Below, piece by piece: positions 1 to 49,423 of a DNA stretch of 64,000 nt. The notes under the pieces were generated by a model. That model did no database searches, was not told the DNA's origin, and worked only from the letters and a program-made list of their open reading frames with translations. Position 1 is the first letter of the stretch; every line of letters begins with the position of its first letter. The stretch is taken from the NCBI RefSeq assembly GCF_030013205.1, contig NZ_CP122648.1. One strand, written 5' to 3'. Both the position numbers and the translations under genes were made by a program. This DNA comes from Escherichia coli. Its GTDB lineage: Bacteria > Pseudomonadota > Gammaproteobacteria > Enterobacterales > Enterobacteriaceae.

Positions 1-78
1 TCCGCCGGACAGCTTAATTAATTCCTTACTTGGCCGGTTTAAGTCAGCCACGATCCGGCCTTTTTTCAGGAGCTGAAT

Positions 79-1026
79 ATGAAAACACTACCTCCAGTCG
101 CACTAGGTACATGGTCCTGGGGCACAGGCTTTGCCGGCGGCGACACCGTCTTTGGTAATCATCTTTCTGATACTCAGATGGCAGAAGTGTTCACTGCGGC
201 CATGAGTAAGGGCCTCAATCTCTGGGATACCGCAGCAGTATATGGTATGGGGAGTTCCGAGACTGCGCTGGGAGCATTAGTCCATCAGTTTCCCCGCGAG
301 AACATAATTTTATCCACCAAATTCACGCCGCAGATTGCGGACAAGCAGTCTGCGCAGCCTGTCAGCGATATGCTTGAGGCCAGCCTTGGGCGCTTGGGCG
401 TGGACGCGATTGATATCTACTGGATCCATAATCCCCTCGACGTCGAAAAATGGACGCCAGGATTGATCCCACTTTTACAAAACGGTAAGGTAAAACGCGT
501 AGGTGTTTCCAACCACAATCTGGCACAAATCAGACGCGCCAATGAAATCCTTAACGCTTCCGGTTATTCCCTCAGTGCAGTACAAAATCACTACAGCCTG
601 CTCTATCGCGCTTCTGAAGAGGCCGGGATCCTTGATTATTGCCGACAAAATAACATCACGTTCTTTGCTTACATGGTCCTGGAGCAAGGCGCGCTCAGTG
701 GTCGTTATGATTCAAATCATCCCATGCCTGCCGGGAGTGGCCGGGCCGAAAGTTATAACGCAGTACTGCCGCAGATAGAAAGACTAACTGCCGCCATGAA
801 AAAAATGGGAGCCGAAAGGAATGCCAGCGTGGCACAGATAGCCATCGCATGGGCTATTGCGAAAGGTACCCTTCCCCTCGTTGGTGCGACTAAAGTCCAT
901 CACGTTCTGGACGCCGCCTGCGCTTCAGACATCCAGTTACGCGATGAGGAAATCATCCTGCTGGAACAACTCGCCGCAGAGACCAGAGTGGATACACGAG
1001 GCGCCTGGGAAAAACCGATGGTGTAA
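79..1026 (+). CDS. Aldo-keto reductase family oxidoreductase (315 aa)
   Basis: ORF translation has AKR hallmarks (N-terminal GTWSWG motif, TIM-barrel-length product); AGGAG Shine-Dalgarno about 8 nt upstream of ATG. Confidence 0.8.
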   Translation: MKTLPPVALGTWSWGTGFAGGDTVFGNHLSDTQMAEVFTAAMSKGLNLWDTAAVYGMGSSETALGALVHQFPRENIILSTKFTPQIADKQSAQPVSDMLEASLGRLGVDAIDIYWIHNPLDVEKWTPGLIPLLQNGKVKRVGVSNHNLAQIRRANEILNASGYSLSAVQNHYSLLYRASEEAGILDYCRQNNITFFAYMVLEQGALSGRYDSNHPMPAGSGRAESYNAVLPQIERLTAAMKKMGAERNASVAQIAIAWAIAKGTLPLVGATKVHHVLDAACASDIQLRDEEIILLEQLAAETRVDTRGAWEKPMV

Positions 1027-1128
1027 AGCCCGTCCGGAACAGACTGTCATGAATGACACACACGAACGGGCTGTTCCGGGTGATTCTAATCTGTATCACT
1101 TTTACTGCTTTGTATGAATGGTGAGAAT

Positions 1129-1805
1129 ATGAAAATCATTTGCCTCGAAGAACATTATCTCGACAGCGAGTTAGGGCGAGCGTGTATGCCTGTTGCGCTT
1201 GAGCAGGCACCTTTCCTTGGCGACTGGGGGAAAACCGTCGCTGATGGTCATAATCCTGACCGACTCCCTGCTTTCCCGCTTTAATAAACTGAATGTGCCA
1301 CTCTATCTTCATCCCGGGTTACCGCTTAAAAGCGTACAGCAGGCCTACTTCACGGGCTTCAGCGCAGAGGTCAACGCCAGGCTTTCTATGTTTGCCTGGG
1401 GCTGGCATCACGAAGCGGGGATCCATTTGTTGCGGCTGATGTTATCGGGCGCATTTGATAAATATCCCAACCTGCAGGTAATCAGTGGCCACTGGGGGGA
1501 GATGTTACCCTTCTGGCTCCAGCGTCTTGATGACAGCCTACCACTGGCTGCAACGGGTCTGTCACGCACGCTAACGAGAACCTTCCAGGAACACGTTTAC
1601 GTTACCCCGCCATATGCTAACACTGCCGCACTTCCAGTTTATCTACGCGTTAATGGGTGCTGAAAGGATCCTGTTCTCCGTCGATTATCCCTATCAGACC
1701 CTGGACGGTGTAAAAACCTTTATAGACAGTCTGCCCGTCAACAAGGCTGAAAAAGAGGCCATCGCATTTCGCAATGCAGAACGTTTACTGGGCATCACGG
1801 CGTAG
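1129..1805 (+). pseudogene. Amidohydrolase-2 (ACMSD-like metal-dependent hydrolase) gene, fragmented across three reading frames
   Basis: Short N-terminal ORF from ATG 1129 stops after about 50 codons; homologous segments continue in ORFs 1193..1663 and 1614..1805 in other frames; total span about 225 codons versus about 300 expected. Confidence 0.5.
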
Positions 1806-1954
1806 TTCACGGGTTCGTGATGACCGGTACAATGAGAACAGTTGACCATTATTAGTTTTTGTCTAAAAGTGAATGAGTCTTTACTGCTCTAAAAAAATAA
1901 TGTTGTCACTCTATACTGGATTTAATATTCACCAAAGATGTTTAACTGATTGAA

Positions 1955-2527
1955 ATGAAAAATATCCTTGTTATTTCAGGTCATCCTGAGCTTACCCATT
2001 CCGTCGCCAATGCCACTATTCTTGATGAAGTGGAGACCGCCCTTCCTGATGTTGAGATTCGTCGTCTGGACAGGCTCTATCCGGATGGCAAATTCAACAT
2101 CGCGGCGGAGCAGGAAAGCCTGCTCAGGGCCGATGTGATTGTCTGGCAGTTCCCTTTTTCCTGGTATGGGCTGCCAGGATTAATGAAAAAATGGCTGGAC
2201 GAGGTCTTTGTTCACGGCTTCGCGCATGGCTCAACGGCGAAACTGGGCGGTAAAAAGCTGATCCTCTCCTTTACAACGGGAGCGCCAGAGGAGCTCTATA
2301 CCGTCGACAGTTTCTTTGGCCATACCATTGAAGAGTATCTTATTCCGTTCGAAACCACGGCAAGGCTGTGCAATCTTGAGCTGCTGACGCCGGTTTATAC
2401 CTGCGGTATCAGCTATGCCGACCGGGATGCCGACAAAATCGCGCAGCAAAAAACGCTTGCCCGGGAACACGCTTCAAGGCTTGTCGAACTGCTCAATTCC
2501 GTCGTGAATAATCCAGAGGGAGAATAA
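1955..2527 (+). CDS. Flavodoxin-like fold NAD(P)H dehydrogenase (quinone) family protein (190 aa)
   Basis: Translation begins MKNILVISGHP with WQFPFSWYGLPGLMKKWLD, typical of flavodoxin-2 NAD(P)H quinone reductases; stop is 2 nt before next gene. Confidence 0.7.
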   Translation: MKNILVISGHPELTHSVANATILDEVETALPDVEIRRLDRLYPDGKFNIAAEQESLLRADVIVWQFPFSWYGLPGLMKKWLDEVFVHGFAHGSTAKLGGKKLILSFTTGAPEELYTVDSFFGHTIEEYLIPFETTARLCNLELLTPVYTCGISYADRDADKIAQQKTLAREHASRLVELLNSVVNNPEGE

Positions 2528-2529
2528 CA

Positions 2530-3549
2530 ATGCAGTATACCCGGCTCGGTAAAAGTGACTTACTTGTTTCCCGCATCTGCATGGGATGCATGGGGTTTGG
2601 CGATCCGTCGACGGGTCAGCATAGCTGGACGCTGGACGAAACAGCAAGCCGCGACATCATTCGCTATGGCCTTGAAAAGGGCATCAACTTTTACGATACC
2701 GCTATAGCCTACCAGAATGGCTCCAGTGAGCGATACGTTGGCCGGGCATTACGGGAGATGGCGAAACGCGATGATATCGTCCTGGCCACCAAGTTTCTGC
2801 CGCGAACCCCCGCACAAATTGCCGGAGGGATCAGCGGAAAAGAGGCAATCGCTCAATCCCTTGACCAGAGCCTGAAGAATCTGGGGATGGACTATATCGA
2901 CCTCTACATCTACCACATCTGGGATTACAACACGCCCATTATCGACGTGCTTGAAGCGTTACATACCGCTGTTACTGCTGGCAAAGTACGAGCTGTTGGT
3001 ATTTCAAACTGCTATGCCTGGCAGCTGGCGAAGGCGAACGCCCTTGCTGAACGCGAAGGGCTGACGCCCTTTGTTTCCGTACAGAGCCACTACAATCTAA
3101 TTATGCGCGAAGATGAACGGGAGCTCTTCGGCCTGTGCACTGAGGATAATATCGCAATGACCCCCTATAGCGCGCTGGCCAGCGGCCGCCTCTCTCGTAA
3201 AGAAGGCTATACACGGCGAGCCACAGAGGATGACTATGCGCGTGGAAAATATGACAGCACGGCTGAACAGGATCGCAGCATTATTGAGCGTGTAGCCGAA
3301 CTGGCCGAACGCCATCTGGTGTCAATGACGGAAATATCTCTCGCTTGGCTGCTGACAAAAGTCACATCACCTGTCGTAGGGGCTACAAAAAAAGCTCATG
3401 TCGATGGCGCGGTAAACGCAGTAAATCTTCAACTAAGTCCGGAGGAAATTCAGTTTCTGGAAGAAACCTACCAGCCGCATGTTCTGACGGGGATCATGGC
3501 GCAAAATACGCCGCAAACGAAAGATGTTAAGCAGGTCTGGATGCGATAG
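2530..3549 (+). CDS. Aldo-keto reductase (Tas/YajO-like, 339 aa)
   Basis: ORF translation (RLGKSDLLVSRICMGCMGFGD, IDLYIYH) matches the AKR family; tightly coupled to upstream gene. Confidence 0.8.
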   Translation: MQYTRLGKSDLLVSRICMGCMGFGDPSTGQHSWTLDETASRDIIRYGLEKGINFYDTAIAYQNGSSERYVGRALREMAKRDDIVLATKFLPRTPAQIAGGISGKEAIAQSLDQSLKNLGMDYIDLYIYHIWDYNTPIIDVLEALHTAVTAGKVRAVGISNCYAWQLAKANALAEREGLTPFVSVQSHYNLIMREDERELFGLCTEDNIAMTPYSALASGRLSRKEGYTRRATEDDYARGKYDSTAEQDRSIIERVAELAERHLVSMTEISLAWLLTKVTSPVVGATKKAHVDGAVNAVNLQLSPEEIQFLEETYQPHVLTGIMAQNTPQTKDVKQVWMR

Positions 3550-3664
3550 CCCTTATTCACTTTTCCTCCTCTCGTCTTTGAGAGCGCCAGTAGCGGTCGG
3601 TTACGTTCTTACCAGCACCAGTTGATCGAACGTCTTAAACAGTAACGTCAGTAAAAAGATCATC

Positions 3665-4390
3665 GTGAAAAAGACTTTTATGCTTTTAATTTGCATGCTA
3701 ATAAGCAGCCCTGTCTTTGCAACAAAACCGGACGCGCCGAATAAGTCGGAGATGAATATCTTCGAGCTCGGCATCAGACCCGATCGGGACAACGACTTTG
3801 CAGACGTGGCCAGACAGACGATTTCCGCTTCGGTTGATCATGAAGCAGGTACACTGGCGATGTATGCCCTGCAACGCAGCGACAATTCAGGTCAGGCATT
3901 CATGTTCGAACTCTATGAAAATGAGCGTGCTTATCGCAAACATCTCAATGCCGCCCCATACAAAGCATTCGCTGCTCGTGCACCTGACATTATTGACAGG
4001 AAGAAGAAAATTACCCTGGAGCCACAGTTTCTGGGCGACAAACACATCATACCGAATGAACGAACTATCAATAATCTGGTGATCGTCGAAGTAAAGCCTG
4101 AATTTCAGAGCGAATTTAGAAACATCGTCCTTCCTGAAATGGTCGAGTCGCTCAAAGTAGAGAAAGGCGTGTTAGCCATGTATGCCGGTACAGATTCAGA
4201 GACTCCAAAACGCTGGTATTTCTATGAGATTTACGCCAGTGAGGAGGATTATCAACTGCACCGACAAACGCTGCACTTCCTGGATTACCTCAGGCAAACG
4301 GCGCATATGAGCGCCAGGAAGGACGCAATCCCGGTAAAACCGGTATTTCTTCGTAACAAAGGCGGAATCAAACAGGAGCCGCAACGTTGA
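3665..4390 (+). CDS. Secreted protein with two tandem ABM (antibiotic biosynthesis monooxygenase-like) domains (241 aa)
   Basis: N-terminal signal-peptide-like segment (MKKTFMLLICMLISSPVFA); two repeats with the ABM-type YExYxxExxYxxH pattern (FELYENERAYRKHL and YEIYASEEDYQLHR). Confidence 0.55.
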   Translation: MKKTFMLLICMLISSPVFATKPDAPNKSEMNIFELGIRPDRDNDFADVARQTISASVDHEAGTLAMYALQRSDNSGQAFMFELYENERAYRKHLNAAPYKAFAARAPDIIDRKKKITLEPQFLGDKHIIPNERTINNLVIVEVKPEFQSEFRNIVLPEMVESLKVEKGVLAMYAGTDSETPKRWYFYEIYASEEDYQLHRQTLHFLDYLRQTAHMSARKDAIPVKPVFLRNKGGIKQEPQR

Positions 4391-4405
4391 CCAGTAAGGA
4401 TTAAC

Positions 4406-5170
4406 ATGAAAAGCGTACTTGCAGCAGCGGCTATGTCGCTTGTTATTTCTGATTTTGCCAATGCTGAGGAAACAAGAGGTAAAGCTATGATGAAAATAGA
4501 ACCGTCAGCGATTTCGGAAGCTGATATTCGTTCCGTCTCACCGGCTCTCGCGCGCTTTGGTCGCGAAGCTATTACTGAAGATCTGTGGACACGCGACGCC
4601 CTCTCACCGAGGGATCGTAGTGTGGTGACCGTCGCCATGCTGATTGCCCGCAACCAGCCTGCCGAGCTTAAGCACTATATTGACGTCGCTCTCGATAGCG
4701 GCGTGACGCCAGCGGAATTATCAGAAATCATTACCCATCTGGCGTTCTACTCAGGTTGGCCAAATGCAATGTCAGCCGTCAGCGTGATCAAAGCAGTATT
4801 TGAAACTCGTGGCGTCACGGCAGATGCACTTCCTGAAGCTTCTCCGGACCTGCTTCCTCTCAATCAGGAAGCAGAAAAGCAGCGTTCAGAGACAGTGGAA
4901 AAAAATGTTGGCCCAATATCTCCAGGCCTGGTTAAATTCACTGCTGATCCACTCTTCCTGGATCTCTGGCAAAGACCCGCGCTGAAACCCCGCGACAGAA
5001 GCCTGATTACGGTCAGCGCCTTAATCGCATCCGGACAGAGCGCGCAGATTGGCTATCACCTCAATAGAGCAATGGATAATGGACTTTCGGTGAGATCGTT
5101 ACCCAGGCCGCCTTCTATGCTGGCTGGCCAAACGCATTTACCGCTGCTCCGGTTGTGGGAGAGGTGCTAA
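4406..5170 (+). CDS. Carboxymuconolactone decarboxylase (CMD/AhpD-like) family protein with two CMD repeats; C-terminus apparently frameshifted
   Basis: Two repeats of the DRSxxTV...HLAFYxGWPNA pattern; the second repeat's conserved motif (EIVTQAAFYAGWPNAF) is encoded in a different frame from about 5092 and runs to a stop at 5196. Confidence 0.6.
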   Translation: MKSVLAAAAMSLVISDFANAEETRGKAMMKIEPSAISEADIRSVSPALARFGREAITEDLWTRDALSPRDRSVVTVAMLIARNQPAELKHYIDVALDSGVTPAELSEIITHLAFYSGWPNAMSAVSVIKAVFETRGVTADALPEASPDLLPLNQEAEKQRSETVEKNVGPISPGLVKFTADPLFLDLWQRPALKPRDRSLITVSALIASGQSAQIGYHLNRAMDNGLSVRSLPRPPSMLAGQTHLPLLRLWERC

Positions 5171-5610
5171 ACAATCGATCATCGAGTAAAAGGTAACATT
5201 ACTGAACACTAAAACCTGACGCACATCACAAAATTAGAACGATCAGTTCATGAACCAACAGACGTGACATCGAGTGATTTATGGACAGCGTTTAACACAG
5301 TTATGAACCAAAACTGAGTTCATAACTGTGAGTTTGAATCGTCATTTGATTAATATCCATTTAAAACAGTTTGTTATGCTGTTTCTGGTGCTGAAGTCAA
5401 TTATGTATATCCCTCAAACCCAGAATAGTTAAATGGAATTTGAGTGATGCGAAGCGATTTTACGGTCGTCGTTATTACTTCAGGGTTCCAGAACATAAAG
5501 CCTCTCCTCTTTCATGATTGGCCTGTGCATACCTGATATAGGCTGGCTGGTATGCAGGTTTGCCGTTTGCCGCATCTTCCCTGCGTTGAAGAGTCAGGCT
5601 GGCAAACCGC

Positions 5611-47892: not shown

Positions 47893-48546
47893 TTATATCC
47901 CTTCTTCACTCTCTTTTTTCGCTTCTGCCTTCTCGATTTCACGATACCAGCGCGGATGGTGTTTCTTCGCCCAGCGACGGCTCACCTTCCCTTCGATCAT
48001 CCCTTTAATCGATCCTTTCACCCAGAAAGCCATATACATATGGATCAGGATGGCGTGGATCAGGATGATACCCGCAGCCGCATGGATCAGCAGGCTATAA
48101 CGGACAACCTGTATCGGGAAGTACTGCGCAAAGTACGGACGCCAGATAATCACCCCGGTCACCAGCAGCACGAAAATCATGCTCATGATTGACCAGAACA
48201 TCATCTTTTGCCCGGCGTTGTACTTACCGACATCCGCCACTTTGTGCTCATTGCCTTTTAATACTTCGACAATGTTCAACAGCCACGGAATATCTTTCTT
48301 ATCCGGGATGTTGTGATGCACAAAACGCACAAACATAAACATCAGCGCGACGAAAATCGCAATGCCGAAGAACGGGTGCAAAATGCGTCCCATCTGCGGC
48401 GTACCGAAGGTTTGCGTCAGCCATTGCAGCGTCGGGAAGAAGAACGAAATCCCGGACAGCGCCACCAGGAAGAAGCAAATCACCACGGTCCAGTGACAGG
48501 CGCGATCAATAAATTTGGTGCGCACAATCATTTTCGACTTACTCAT
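47893..48546 (-). CDS. fdnI: Formate dehydrogenase-N gamma subunit (cytochrome b556, 217 aa)
   Basis: Membrane protein with conserved His residues; start at the internal Met [12 protein letters not shown]. Confidence 0.9.
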
Positions 48547-49423
48547 GATGATCCTCCTCGTCATCGTCCACTTCCTTATTCGGGCCAATACCGATGTAGT
48601 GGAAAATCAACCCGGCAAAAGTGGCAATAAAGCCAGCCGCTGCCAGCGGTTTCAACGCGCCTTTCCACAGGCTTACCGAGGTATCGATCTTCGGATCTTT
48701 CGGCAGACCGTGATACAGCTCCGGCTGATCGGCGTGATGCAGCACGTACATAACGTGCGTACCACCGACCCCTTCCGGGTTGTAGACGTCAGCATGTTCG
48801 TAACCACGCGCTTTCAGTTTCGCCACGCGCTGTTCCGCCAGCTCCAGCATCTCCTTCTTGGTGCCGAAGTGGATAGCCCCGGTCGGACAGGTTTTCACAC
48901 AAGCCGGTTCCTGGCCGACGCTGACGCGATCGACGCAGAGCGTGCATTTATATACCCGGTTATCCTCTTTGTTGAGGCGCGGAATATTAAACGGACACCC
49001 GGCAATGCAGTAACCACAGCCGATGCAGTTTTCCGACTGGAAATCGACAATCCCGTTAGCGTACTGAATGATTGCACCAGCAGACGGGCACGCCTTCAGG
49101 CAGCCCGGATCTTCACAGTGCATACAGCCGTCTTTACGGATCAGCCACTCCAGCTTGCCGTTCTGTTCGGTTTCGCTAAAGCGCATCACCGTCCAGGACT
49201 TGGCGCTCAGATCTGCGGGGTTATCGTAAACCCCGACGCAGTGCCCCACTTCATCACGGATGTCGTTCCACTCCGAACACGCCACCTGACAGGCTTTACA
49301 GCCGATACAGGTGGAAACGTCGATAAGTTTTGCGACTTCTGCTTTGTAATCACGCACCTGAGAAGGCGGCGTGATGGAGTTAGTTGCGGACCTTTTGATA
49401 ATGTCCTGCGTTTCCATAGCCAT
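48539..49423 (-). CDS. fdnH: Formate dehydrogenase-N beta subunit (4x[4Fe-4S], 294 aa)
   Basis: Four CxxCxxCxxxC ferredoxin motifs; overlaps the fdnI start by 8 nt. Confidence 0.9.

What the first reader, a model, noticed from the sequence alone, without database searches (positions are those of the whole stretch)
1129..1805. Amidohydrolase-2 gene is a frameshifted, internally shortened pseudogene
The coding signal is spread over three frames and the total span is only about 225 codons, which indicates a deletion plus frameshifts rather than one sequencing error. This is gene decay inside the accessory cluster.
Basis: seen in the sequence. Interest (0 to 1): 0.3.

Follow-up and report, generated by a model that had tools for sequence, protein, structure and literature searches.

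The report
Dead amidohydrolase gene in E. coli
Window 1129-1805 is the broken remnant of a 344-codon metal-dependent decarboxylase-type (Amidohydro_2) gene, inactivated by a 356-base deletion and a 2-base deletion; this is ordinary gene decay in an accessory E. coli gene cluster.

Summary
Window 1129-1805 (677 nt) holds one PF04909 (Amidohydro_2) gene spread over three reading frames. Alignment to intact syntenic orthologues of 344 codons shows exactly two lesions. One is a 356-bp deletion (3x118+2) with its junction at 1261-1264. It removes residues 46-163 and shifts the frame. The other is a 2-bp (GG) deletion between 1612 and 1613. Restoring both in silico gives a single 344-codon ORF.

The three conserved metal-ligand positions (Glu7/His9, His180, Asp305) now lie in three different frames. 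Barrel strands β2-β4 are gone.

The locus occurs in 472 of 5,426 complete E. coli genomes. No complete E. coli genome contains the deleted 356 bp. The 2-bp deletion is in about 77% of carriers. Some alleles add a third frameshift or a further 91-bp deletion.

The surrounding cluster is also eroded, with a 953-bp and a 13-bp deletion inside the window and a frameshifted LysR regulator upstream of it.

Two refinements apply. The shortening and the first frame change are one event. The gene is closer to hydroxybenzoate-type decarboxylases (LigW, γ-resorcylate decarboxylase) than to ACMSD itself. RefSeq lists the fragments as ordinary CDSs. Interest is low.

The parts
1129..1263 (+). 5' remnant: ancestral codons 1-45 (MKIICLEEHY...GHNPDR), frame 1. 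It holds the Glu7/His9 metal-ligand motif (EEH, 1147-1155).
   Evidence: Base-for-base match to nt 16-150 of the intact L006 ORF with one SNP. The ATG at 1129 is the start used by RefSeq for the intact E. mori gene. Motif position.
1261..1264 (+). Junction of the 356-bp deletion (CC[GA]C). There are 2 nt of microhomology (GA), so the breakpoint can be placed anywhere within 1261-1264. The deletion removes ancestral residues 46-163 and shifts the frame.
   Evidence: Alignment A2 has a 356-column gap. Prefix and suffix walks confirm it, as does mafft ('window gap after 1261 len 356'). Intact flanks are ...AATCCTGACCGAAGCC... and ...CATCCTGACTATGACTCC....
1264..1284 (+). Out-of-frame read-through of frame 1 (LPAFPL) ending at a premature TAA (1282-1284).
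   Evidence: Translation.
1262..1612 (+). Middle remnant: ancestral codons 164-280 (DSLLSRF...YVTP[P/S]), frame 2. It holds His180 (YLHPG, 1298-1318) and His240 (ISGHWGE, 1481-1501).
   Evidence: Pfam PF04909 E=1.8e-8. Alignment A2. Coordinates.
1612..1613 (+). Site of the 2-bp (GG) deletion inside the Gly281 codon (ancestral TCA GGT ATG, now CCA-TATG). This is the second frame shift.
   Evidence: Alignments A1 and A2, and ('small window gap after 1612 len 2'). It is absent from about 22% of E. coli carriers.
1613..1663 (+). Out-of-frame tail of frame 2 (YANTAALPVYLRVNGC) ending at a premature TGA (1661-1663).
   Evidence: Translation.
1613..1805 (+). 3' remnant: the last base of the Gly281 codon (1613), then ancestral codons 282-344 (MLTLPHF, 1614 onward) and the original TAG stop (1803-1805), frame 3. 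It holds Asp305 (FSVDYPY, 1674-1694).
   Evidence: Pfam PF04909 E=1.1e-7, profile 227-289 of 289. Alignment A2. Coordinates.
79..1026 (+). Upstream neighbour in the same cluster: an intact aldo/keto reductase (315 aa).
   Evidence: Pfam PF00248 E=9.9e-57. Annotation.
1955..3549 (+). Downstream neighbours, both intact: an NAD(P)H-dependent oxidoreductase (Flavodoxin_2, 1955-2527) and a second aldo/keto reductase (2530-3549).
   Evidence: Pfam. Annotation.
3562..3563 (+). Junction of a second cluster deletion (953 bp). It removed the DUF1330 gene and most of a second Flavodoxin_2 gene that are present in the intact clusters.
   Evidence: blastn and mafft against L006 and L007. Gene content of the intact loci.
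4406..5196 (+). Carboxymuconolactone-decarboxylase-family gene of the same cluster, frameshifted by a 13-bp deletion at about 5088-5091.
   Evidence: 13-nt gap. The ORF ends early at 5170. RefSeq marks it 'frameshifted' in the near-identical K_EC180 record.

Best explanation
Window 1129-1805 is a non-functional relic (pseudogene) of a 344-residue metal-dependent enzyme. The enzyme is a TIM-barrel protein of the Amidohydro_2 family, on the branch that contains non-oxidative aromatic-acid decarboxylases.

Shown:
- One 356-bp deletion, with only 2 nt of microhomology at its ends, removed residues 46-163 and shifted the frame.
- Later, a 2-bp deletion in the Gly281 codon shifted the frame again.
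- Translation from the original start stops after 51 codons.

Inferred:
- No product can contain all metal ligands or a closed barrel, so no enzyme is made.
- The relic persists only because it sits between intact genes of an accessory redox/detoxification-type cluster next to hipBA, and that cluster is itself eroding in E. coli.
- The 356-bp deletion came first, because it is in every carrier examined. The 2-bp deletion, a 1-bp insertion and a 91-bp deletion followed in sub-lineages.
For: 1. Collinear alignment to intact syntenic orthologues gives exactly two gaps, of 356 and 2 nt. In-silico repair yields one 344-codon ORF.
2. Full-length homologues have 343-349 residues across Enterobacterales and beyond. 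An intact copy lies in the same gene order on a 214-kb Enterobacter mori plasmid.
3. An AlphaFold2 model of the intact orthologue (pLDDT 88.9, pTM 0.91) places strands at 78-83, 117-122 and 147-150, all inside the deleted 46-163. Thirty-four columns that are invariant among 26 homologues fall in that segment.
4. The ligand equivalents lie in three different frames. LigW His188 and Asp314 map onto His180 and Asp305 through the alignment. γ-RSD Glu8/His10 are equated with Glu7/His9 by the N-terminal EEH motif. Ligand identities come from PMC8187880.
5. The locus is in 472 of 5,426 complete E. coli genomes. The deleted 356 bp has no match in any complete E. coli genome.
6. There is a nested series of further lesions. 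The 2-bp deletion is in 358 of 466 carriers. A 1-bp insertion after 1698 is in the allele of L022 and an estimated ~26% of carriers. A 91-bp deletion is in isolate 362. An H9N ligand change is in another allele.
7. pN/pS among the E. coli remnants is 0.29-1.74, against 0.08-0.23 among intact orthologues.
8. The same cluster carries a 953-bp deletion, a 13-bp deletion and a frameshifted LysR regulator.
Against: - There are no expression or proteomic data, so translation of the fragments cannot be excluded.
- RefSeq/PGAP lists the fragments as ordinary CDSs with WP_ accessions rather than as a pseudogene.
- The pN/pS contrast rests on only 2-7 substitutions per class and is suggestive only.
- In isolate 362 the extra 91-bp deletion happens to restore the frame (356+91=447), giving a 195-codon ORF.
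- The substrate and function of the intact enzyme are unknown. NCBIfam gives no hit.
Confidence: 0.95

Rival explanations
1. The frame changes are sequencing or assembly errors in an otherwise intact gene.
For: Single-base indels are common in long-read assemblies. Several 'frameshifted' or 'internal stop' flags in the near-identical K_EC180 record (usher, ydeM, fdnH) are not reproduced in the window.
Against: The query (window 1000-1950) is 100% identical in at least 23 listed, independently assembled complete genomes. The 356-bp deletion is in every allele examined, and its sequence is absent from all 5,426 complete E. coli genomes. The 2-bp deletion is shared by 358 genomes. A 356-bp loss cannot be a base-calling error.
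Confidence: 0.01
2. One or more fragments are real, functional small proteins, as the RefSeq CDS calls imply. Candidates are the 139- or 187-residue C-terminal piece, or the frame-restored 195-residue form.
For: PGAP annotates them as 'amidohydrolase family protein' and 'hypothetical protein' without a pseudogene flag. The C-terminal ORF is uninterrupted in about 22% of carriers. The P0012 form, which matches the frame-restored ORF of isolate 362, has 40 member sequences.
Against: Every fragment lacks at least one metal ligand and three to four barrel strands. The annotated internal start at ATG 1244 has no Shine-Dalgarno-like sequence before it. The same ORF is broken again in 77% of carriers, and a third time in the L022-type allele. 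Substitutions include ligand losses, such as H9N.
Confidence: 0.04
3. The frame changes are programmed (ribosomal frameshifting) or phase-variable, so a full product is made conditionally.
For: There are two frame changes within one gene. A third lesion in other alleles lies in a short C run (CCC to CCCC after 1698).
Against: One hundred and eighteen codons are physically missing, so no recoding can restore the enzyme. The GG site is not in a repeat tract. Intact orthologues and about 22% of E. coli alleles read straight through the second site. The repeat finder gave only short two-copy families, which are often chance matches.
Confidence: 0.005

Closest known systems
Amidohydro_2 (PF04909 / COG2159) non-oxidative aromatic-acid decarboxylases: LigW 5-carboxyvanillate decarboxylase (4inf/4qrn), γ-resorcylate decarboxylase (3s4t/4qro, 2dvt) and 2,3-dihydroxybenzoate decarboxylase (6m53)
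   Same: The intact orthologue (P0001) matches these at E=3e-45 to 7e-41 over about 280 residues. It keeps the N-terminal E-x-H, the 'LHP' His, the 'GHxGE' His and the 'DYP' Asp. The predicted fold is an eight-stranded barrel.
   Different: The window copy lacks residues 46-163 and is split over three frames, so it cannot be a working member. The substrate of the intact enzyme is unknown, and no NCBIfam equivalog matches.
PDB 3nur, 'Amidohydrolase' (357-residue chain; function not stated in the entry name)
   Same: This is the best solved relative, at E=1.3e-68. It aligns end to end (query 7-348), including the N-terminal EEHY motif.
   Different: No paper in the searched library mentions 3nur together with 'amidohydrolase', so it gives no functional transfer.
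   Same: Same Pfam family and fold, with E about 1e-15.
   Different: It is 30 to 50 orders of magnitude weaker than the hydroxybenzoate-decarboxylase branch and 3nur. The gene is not an ACMSD orthologue.
Intact syntenic clusters: Enterobacter mori LgD10 plasmid NZ_CP119171.1, and Logan contigs L006 and L007
   Same: Same gene order: LysR | small ORF, DJ-1/PfpI, AKR, amidohydrolase, Flavodoxin_2, AKR..., ABM, CMD. Nucleotide identity is 88-100%.
   Different: These carry the full 1,035-nt gene plus the DUF1330 and second Flavodoxin_2 genes that the window lost. Their flanking genes differ from the E. coli hipBA/fimbrial context.

Membership tests
Pfam PF04909 Amidohydro_2 (by descent) | Sequence match to the family HMM above the gathering score | tested here: met
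   The frame-2 piece scores 35 bits and the frame-3 piece 32.3 bits, against a 26.4-bit cut-off. The homologues listed carry PF04909.
Pfam PF04909 Amidohydro_2 (as a working enzyme) | A complete (β/α)8 barrel in one polypeptide | tested here: not met
   Residues 46-163 are deleted. In the model of the intact orthologue these hold strands 78-83, 117-122 and 147-150. Pfam profile positions 1-129 are unmatched.
Pfam PF04909 Amidohydro_2 (as a working enzyme) | Metal ligands together in one chain: Glu/His on β1, His on β5 and Asp on β8. These are Glu8/His10/His164/Asp287 in γ-RSD and Glu19/His188/Asp314 in LigW (PMC8187880). | tested here: not met
   The codons survive but lie in frames 1, 2 and 3 (1147-1155, 1298-1318, 1674-1694), separated by premature stops. 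LigW His188 and Asp314 were mapped through the alignment, with a constant chain-index offset of 22 that I inferred. The Glu/His site was equated by its N-terminal EEH motif.
ACMSD proper (EC 4.1.1.45) | Closest similarity to characterised ACMSDs | tested here: not met
   ACMSD chains score E about 1e-15, against 1e-45 for LigW and 1e-68 for 3nur.
Pseudogene (unitary, by deletion and frameshift) | Collinear homology to a full-length gene, with the ORF interrupted | tested here: met
   There are two gaps of 356 and 2 nt. Premature stops lie at 1282-1284 and 1661-1663. Repair gives 344 codons.
Pseudogene (unitary, by deletion and frameshift) | The lesions are real, meaning reproducible in independent genomes | tested here: met
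Pseudogene (unitary, by deletion and frameshift) | Relaxed selective constraint and accumulation of further lesions | tested here: inconclusive
   pN/pS is 0.29-1.74 against 0.08-0.23, but from very few substitutions. The further indels in sub-lineages support it qualitatively.
Pseudogene (unitary, by deletion and frameshift) | No functional product expressed | not testable with these tools
   This needs transcriptomic, ribosome-profiling or proteomic data.
Programmed ribosomal frameshift gene | Frameshift site conserved among homologues, with a slippery motif | tested here: not met
   Orthologues and about 22% of E. coli alleles are in frame at the second site. The first 'shift' is a 356-bp deletion.

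The most novel reading that the evidence does not exclude
Loss of this enzyme may be selected rather than neutral. The gene has been hit independently several times in clusters that are otherwise retained:
- the 356-bp deletion, present in every E. coli carrier examined;
- a separate 31-bp deletion in the E. mori 08-091 plasmid;
- a copy in the E. cloacae complex that appears truncated near residue 195;
- ligand substitutions, H180N in the otherwise intact L006 allele and H9N in an E. coli allele.

This could mean that the decarboxylase activity is harmful or useless in host-associated Enterobacteriaceae while its reductase neighbours are kept.
Probability: 0.1. Interest if true: 0.3.

Novelty: already known. 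Interest (0 to 1): 0.1.

Why it matters
It matters little beyond annotation hygiene. RefSeq lists the three pieces as separate proteins: a 'hypothetical protein' (WP_001327998.1) and two 'amidohydrolase family protein' entries (WP_001314733.1 and WP_001314732.1). They are fragments of one dead gene. They should be merged and flagged as a pseudogene, otherwise they inflate pan-genome and protein-family counts.

The nested lesions give simple lineage markers for this accessory island. The order is the 356-bp deletion, then the 2-bp deletion, then the 1-bp insertion, with a 91-bp deletion on a side branch.

The locus is also a clean small example of stepwise erosion of a horizontally shared redox/detoxification cluster.

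Tried and rejected
1. Sequencing error: rejected, because hundreds of complete genomes show the same lesions.
2. Total record length, or the '(x2)' annotation, as a proxy for the 2-bp allele: this misled me at first and suggested about half of carriers. A 101-nt query across the site gave 358 of 466 with the deletion. The discrepancy is explained by a third allele class with an extra 1-bp insertion, whose last fragment is not annotated.
3. An 8-nt direct repeat (ATCCTGAC) flanks the deleted segment in intact genes. The junction does not fall in it, and only 2 nt (GA) of microhomology is used.
4. The promoter and terminator scan of 950-2050 gave counts at shuffle level. Hairpins at 1027-1079 and 1786-1829 were seen but have no T-tract.
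5. NCBIfam gave no specific family for the intact protein. A literature search for 3nur found nothing.
6. I tried to identify the organism of L006 from its flank. It matched only a mobile UvrD-helicase/IS3 region at 93% in E. coli, so the source remains unknown.
7. K_EC180 pseudogene flags for the usher, ydeM and fdnH genes do not apply to the window, where those ORFs are intact.

Full report
**Observation**

Window 1129-1805 (677 nt, + strand) carries coding signal in three successive frames.
- Frame 1 runs from ATG 1129: MKIICLEEHYLDSELGRACMPVALEQAPFLGDWGKTVADGHNPDR, then six unrelated codons and TAA at 1282-1284.
- Frame 2 runs from 1262: DSLLSRFNKLNVPLYLHPG...ISGHWGE...EHVYVTP, then an unrelated tail and TGA at 1661-1663.
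- Frame 3 runs from 1613/1614: MLTLPHFQFIYALMGAERILFSVDYPYQ...AERLLGITA, then TAG at 1803-1805.

Pfam PF04909 (Amidohydro_2) matches the second and third pieces above its curated threshold. The scores are 35 and 32.3 bits against 26.4, on profile positions 130-192 and 227-289 of 289. The first piece gives no hit, and profile positions 1-129 are unmatched.

**What the lesions are**

A database search with the concatenated pieces returned 2,889 relatives. The full-length ones have 343-349 residues. The closest, P0001-P0004, read straight through both breaks.

Two of these lie on contigs with the same gene order as the window (L006, L007). An intact copy also sits in the same cluster on a 214-kb Enterobacter mori plasmid (NZ_CP119171.1).

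Nucleotide alignment of the window with L006 and L007 shows exactly two gaps inside the gene.
- **A 356-nt gap after window position 1261.** It has 2 nt of microhomology: intact CC-GA-AGCC ... TAT-GA-CTCC becomes CCGACTCC. The breakpoint can therefore be placed anywhere in 1261-1264.
- **A 2-nt gap (GG) between 1612 and 1613.** It lies inside the Gly281 codon.

Because 356 = 3x118+2, the internal shortening and the first frame change are one event. Inserting the 356 nt from L006 and the GG back into the window gives a single ORF of 344 codons.

I take ATG 1129 as the true start. RefSeq uses it for the intact E. mori gene (1,035 nt), and most homologues have 343-344 residues. The 349-residue Logan calls begin at the upstream ATG 1114.

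**Why the remnant cannot work**

The intact protein's best solved relatives are as follows.

| Solved structure | E-value |
|---|---|
| 3nur, 'Amidohydrolase' (aligned end to end) | 1.3e-68 |
| LigW 5-carboxyvanillate decarboxylase | 3e-45 |
| 2,3-dihydroxybenzoate decarboxylase | 2e-44 |
| γ-resorcylate decarboxylase (3s4t/4qro; 2dvt) | 5e-43; 7e-41 |
| ACMSD | about 1e-15 |

In these enzymes the catalytic metal is held by Glu8/His10/His164/Asp287 (γ-RSD) or Glu19/His188/Asp314 (LigW), according to PMC8187880. In the HMMER alignment, LigW His188 and Asp314 fall on the H of 'YLHPG' and the D of 'VDYPY'. The constant chain-index offset of 22 used for this mapping is my inference. The N-terminal 'EEH' corresponds to the Glu/His pair.

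In the window these sites are at 1147-1155 (frame 1), 1298-1318 (frame 2) and 1674-1694 (frame 3). No single translation product can assemble the metal site.

An AlphaFold2 model of the intact orthologue has pLDDT 88.9 and pTM 0.91 (26-sequence alignment). It shows barrel strands at 4-10, 78-83, 117-122, 147-150, 177-180, 236-238, 275-277 and about 300. The deleted residues 46-163 take out the second, third and fourth strands with their helices. They also take out 34 columns that are invariant among the 26 homologues.

That the remnant is inactive is an inference from these facts. It was not measured.

**The lesions are real, and ordered in time**

The stretch 1000-1950 occurs in 472 of 5,426 complete E. 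coli genomes, almost always once and on the chromosome. Fifty-four are at least 99% identical, and at least 23 listed records are 100% identical. The 356 nt that are missing have no megablast match in any complete E. coli genome. At that sensitivity, every complete E. coli carrier therefore has the large deletion.

A 101-nt query across the second site separates the alleles. In 358 of 466 carriers the match is ungapped (at least 99% identity), so the 2-bp deletion is present. In 102 carriers the match is at 93-94% identity, and the two alleles of that class read base by base (L002, L023) have the GG present.

Four allele classes were read base by base.

| Allele class | Lesions | Example |
|---|---|---|
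| B | 356-bp deletion only; 187-codon C-terminal ORF | WCHEC96200 |
| A | 356-bp and 2-bp deletions | the window, strain 755 |
| C | 356-bp and 2-bp deletions, plus a C inserted after 1698 | WP4-S17-ESBL-08 |
| D | 356-bp deletion plus a further 91-bp deletion; 447 nt lost in all, so the frame is restored over a 195-codon ORF that also lacks the His180 region | isolate 362 |

Class B alleles additionally carry C1153A, which turns the ligand His9 into Asn.

pN/pS among the E. coli remnants is 0.29-1.74. Among intact orthologues over the same codons it is 0.08-0.23. The direction fits relaxed constraint, but the counts (2-7 substitutions) are too small to carry weight.

**Context**

The window is 99.886% identical to E. 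coli K_EC180 from position 2,535,086 of that chromosome onward. There the cluster lies between hipBA and an N-terminally truncated HTH regulator followed by fimbrial genes.

The intact cluster, as seen in E. mori, L006 and L007, has this content:
- a LysR regulator, divergently transcribed;
- a 101-residue ORF;
- a DJ-1/PfpI protein;
- an aldo/keto reductase;
- the amidohydrolase;
- a Flavodoxin_2 NAD(P)H oxidoreductase;
- a second aldo/keto reductase;
- a DUF1330 protein;
- a second Flavodoxin_2 protein;
- an ABM monooxygenase;
- a CMD-family protein.

In the window both aldo/keto reductases, the first Flavodoxin_2 gene and the ABM gene are intact. A 953-bp deletion at 3562|3563 has removed DUF1330 and most of the second Flavodoxin_2 gene. 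A 13-bp deletion near 5088-5091 frameshifts the CMD gene. In K_EC180 the LysR gene, which lies upstream of the window, is also frameshifted. 'Gene decay inside the accessory cluster' is therefore an accurate description.

**Independent damage elsewhere**

- The E. mori 08-091 plasmid copy has its own 31-bp deletion between CTGGCTG repeats and no CDS call.
- A 161-residue E. cloacae form (P0037), and an E. sichuanensis contig that begins at residue 195 (L016), suggest another truncation.
- The otherwise intact L006 allele has Asn in place of His180, and its upstream aldo/keto reductase is split.

This recurrence is the basis of the only mildly novel reading, that loss is selected. I rate that at about 10%.

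**Rivals**

- **Sequencing error** is excluded by reproducibility.
- **Programmed frameshifting** is excluded because 118 codons are physically absent and the second site is in frame in orthologues and in about 22% of alleles.
- **Functional fragments**, as RefSeq's CDS calls imply, are unlikely. Every fragment lacks ligands and strands. The annotated internal start at 1244 has no ribosome-binding sequence before it. The ORF keeps being broken in sub-lineages. Only expression data can exclude this reading.

**Comparison with the known, and verdict**

By descent this is a member of PF04909, on the hydroxybenzoate-decarboxylase-like branch rather than ACMSD proper. As an enzyme it fails the family's structural and ligand requirements. 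The kind of feature, a deletion-plus-frameshift pseudogene in a decaying horizontally shared cluster, is entirely ordinary. The only new content is:
- the exact lesions;
- their order in time;
- the point that the public annotation splits one dead gene into two or three 'proteins'.

Interest is 0.1.

Noticed in passing
window 3562-3664: A 953-bp deletion relative to the intact clusters (L006, L007, E. mori plasmid) removed the DUF1330 gene and most of a second Flavodoxin_2 NAD(P)H-oxidoreductase gene. Only about 90 nt of that gene's 3' end remains, in the 'intergenic' stretch before the ABM gene.
   Followed up: partly
window 4406-5196 (lesion about 5088-5091): The carboxymuconolactone-decarboxylase-family gene of the same cluster is frameshifted by a 13-bp deletion. 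The ORF ends at 5170, whereas intact relatives have 267 codons.
   Followed up: partly
window 30-5434 compared with L006 and L007: The identity is mosaic. Window 430-1830 (the 3' two-thirds of the aldo/keto reductase plus the pseudogene) is about 99% identical to L006, while the flanks are only 86-93% identical. This suggests a recent recombinational exchange of that segment between lineages. The organism of L006 is unknown.
   Followed up: partly
L006:4214-5263 and L006:3179-4127: The 'intact' L006 orthologue has Asn instead of the conserved metal-ligand His180 (YLNPG). Its upstream aldo/keto reductase is split into 136- and 117-residue ORFs by a 1-nt indel. That lineage is decaying in a different way.
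   Followed up: partly
L019:1501-2519 (Enterobacter mori 08-091 plasmid pHS08-091): There is an independent 31-bp deletion in the same amidohydrolase gene, between CTGGCTG direct repeats. No CDS is listed there.
   Followed up: yes
L005 (E. coli isolate 362) and P0012: A further 91-bp deletion next to the 356-bp junction brings the total loss to 447 nt and restores the frame. RefSeq calls the resulting 195-codon ORF an 'amidohydrolase family protein'. It lacks the His180 region as well.
   Followed up: yes
L017 (MAG labelled Collinsella sp., contig of 3,619 nt): This contig carries the E. coli-type deleted form of the gene at 97% protein identity. It is probably an E. coli contig mis-binned into an actinobacterial MAG.
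   Followed up: no
window 1027-1079 and 1786-1829: Two imperfect hairpins lie at the ends of the pseudogene. One is just after the aldo/keto reductase stop (arms 1034-1047 / 1066-1079). The other spans the pseudogene stop (arms 1786-1799 / 1816-1829). Neither has a T-tract, and their role is unknown.
   Followed up: no
window about 20137-22598: An ABC-transporter gene is interrupted by an IS1 element. The split ORFs are 20137-21282 and 22209-22598, and the IS1 ORF is at 21276-21779 on the minus strand. The K_EC180 annotation agrees.
   Followed up: partly
window about 59374-63935: narZ appears truncated at about 62301, followed by a small ORF and an IS91-family transposase (62703-63935).
   Followed up: no
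window 7976-10627, 18674-19846 and 48539-49423: The fimbrial usher, ydeM and fdnH genes are flagged 'frameshifted' or 'internal stop' in the 99.9%-identical K_EC180 record. In the window they are uninterrupted ORFs. Those flags are strain-specific or assembly errors.
   Followed up: partly
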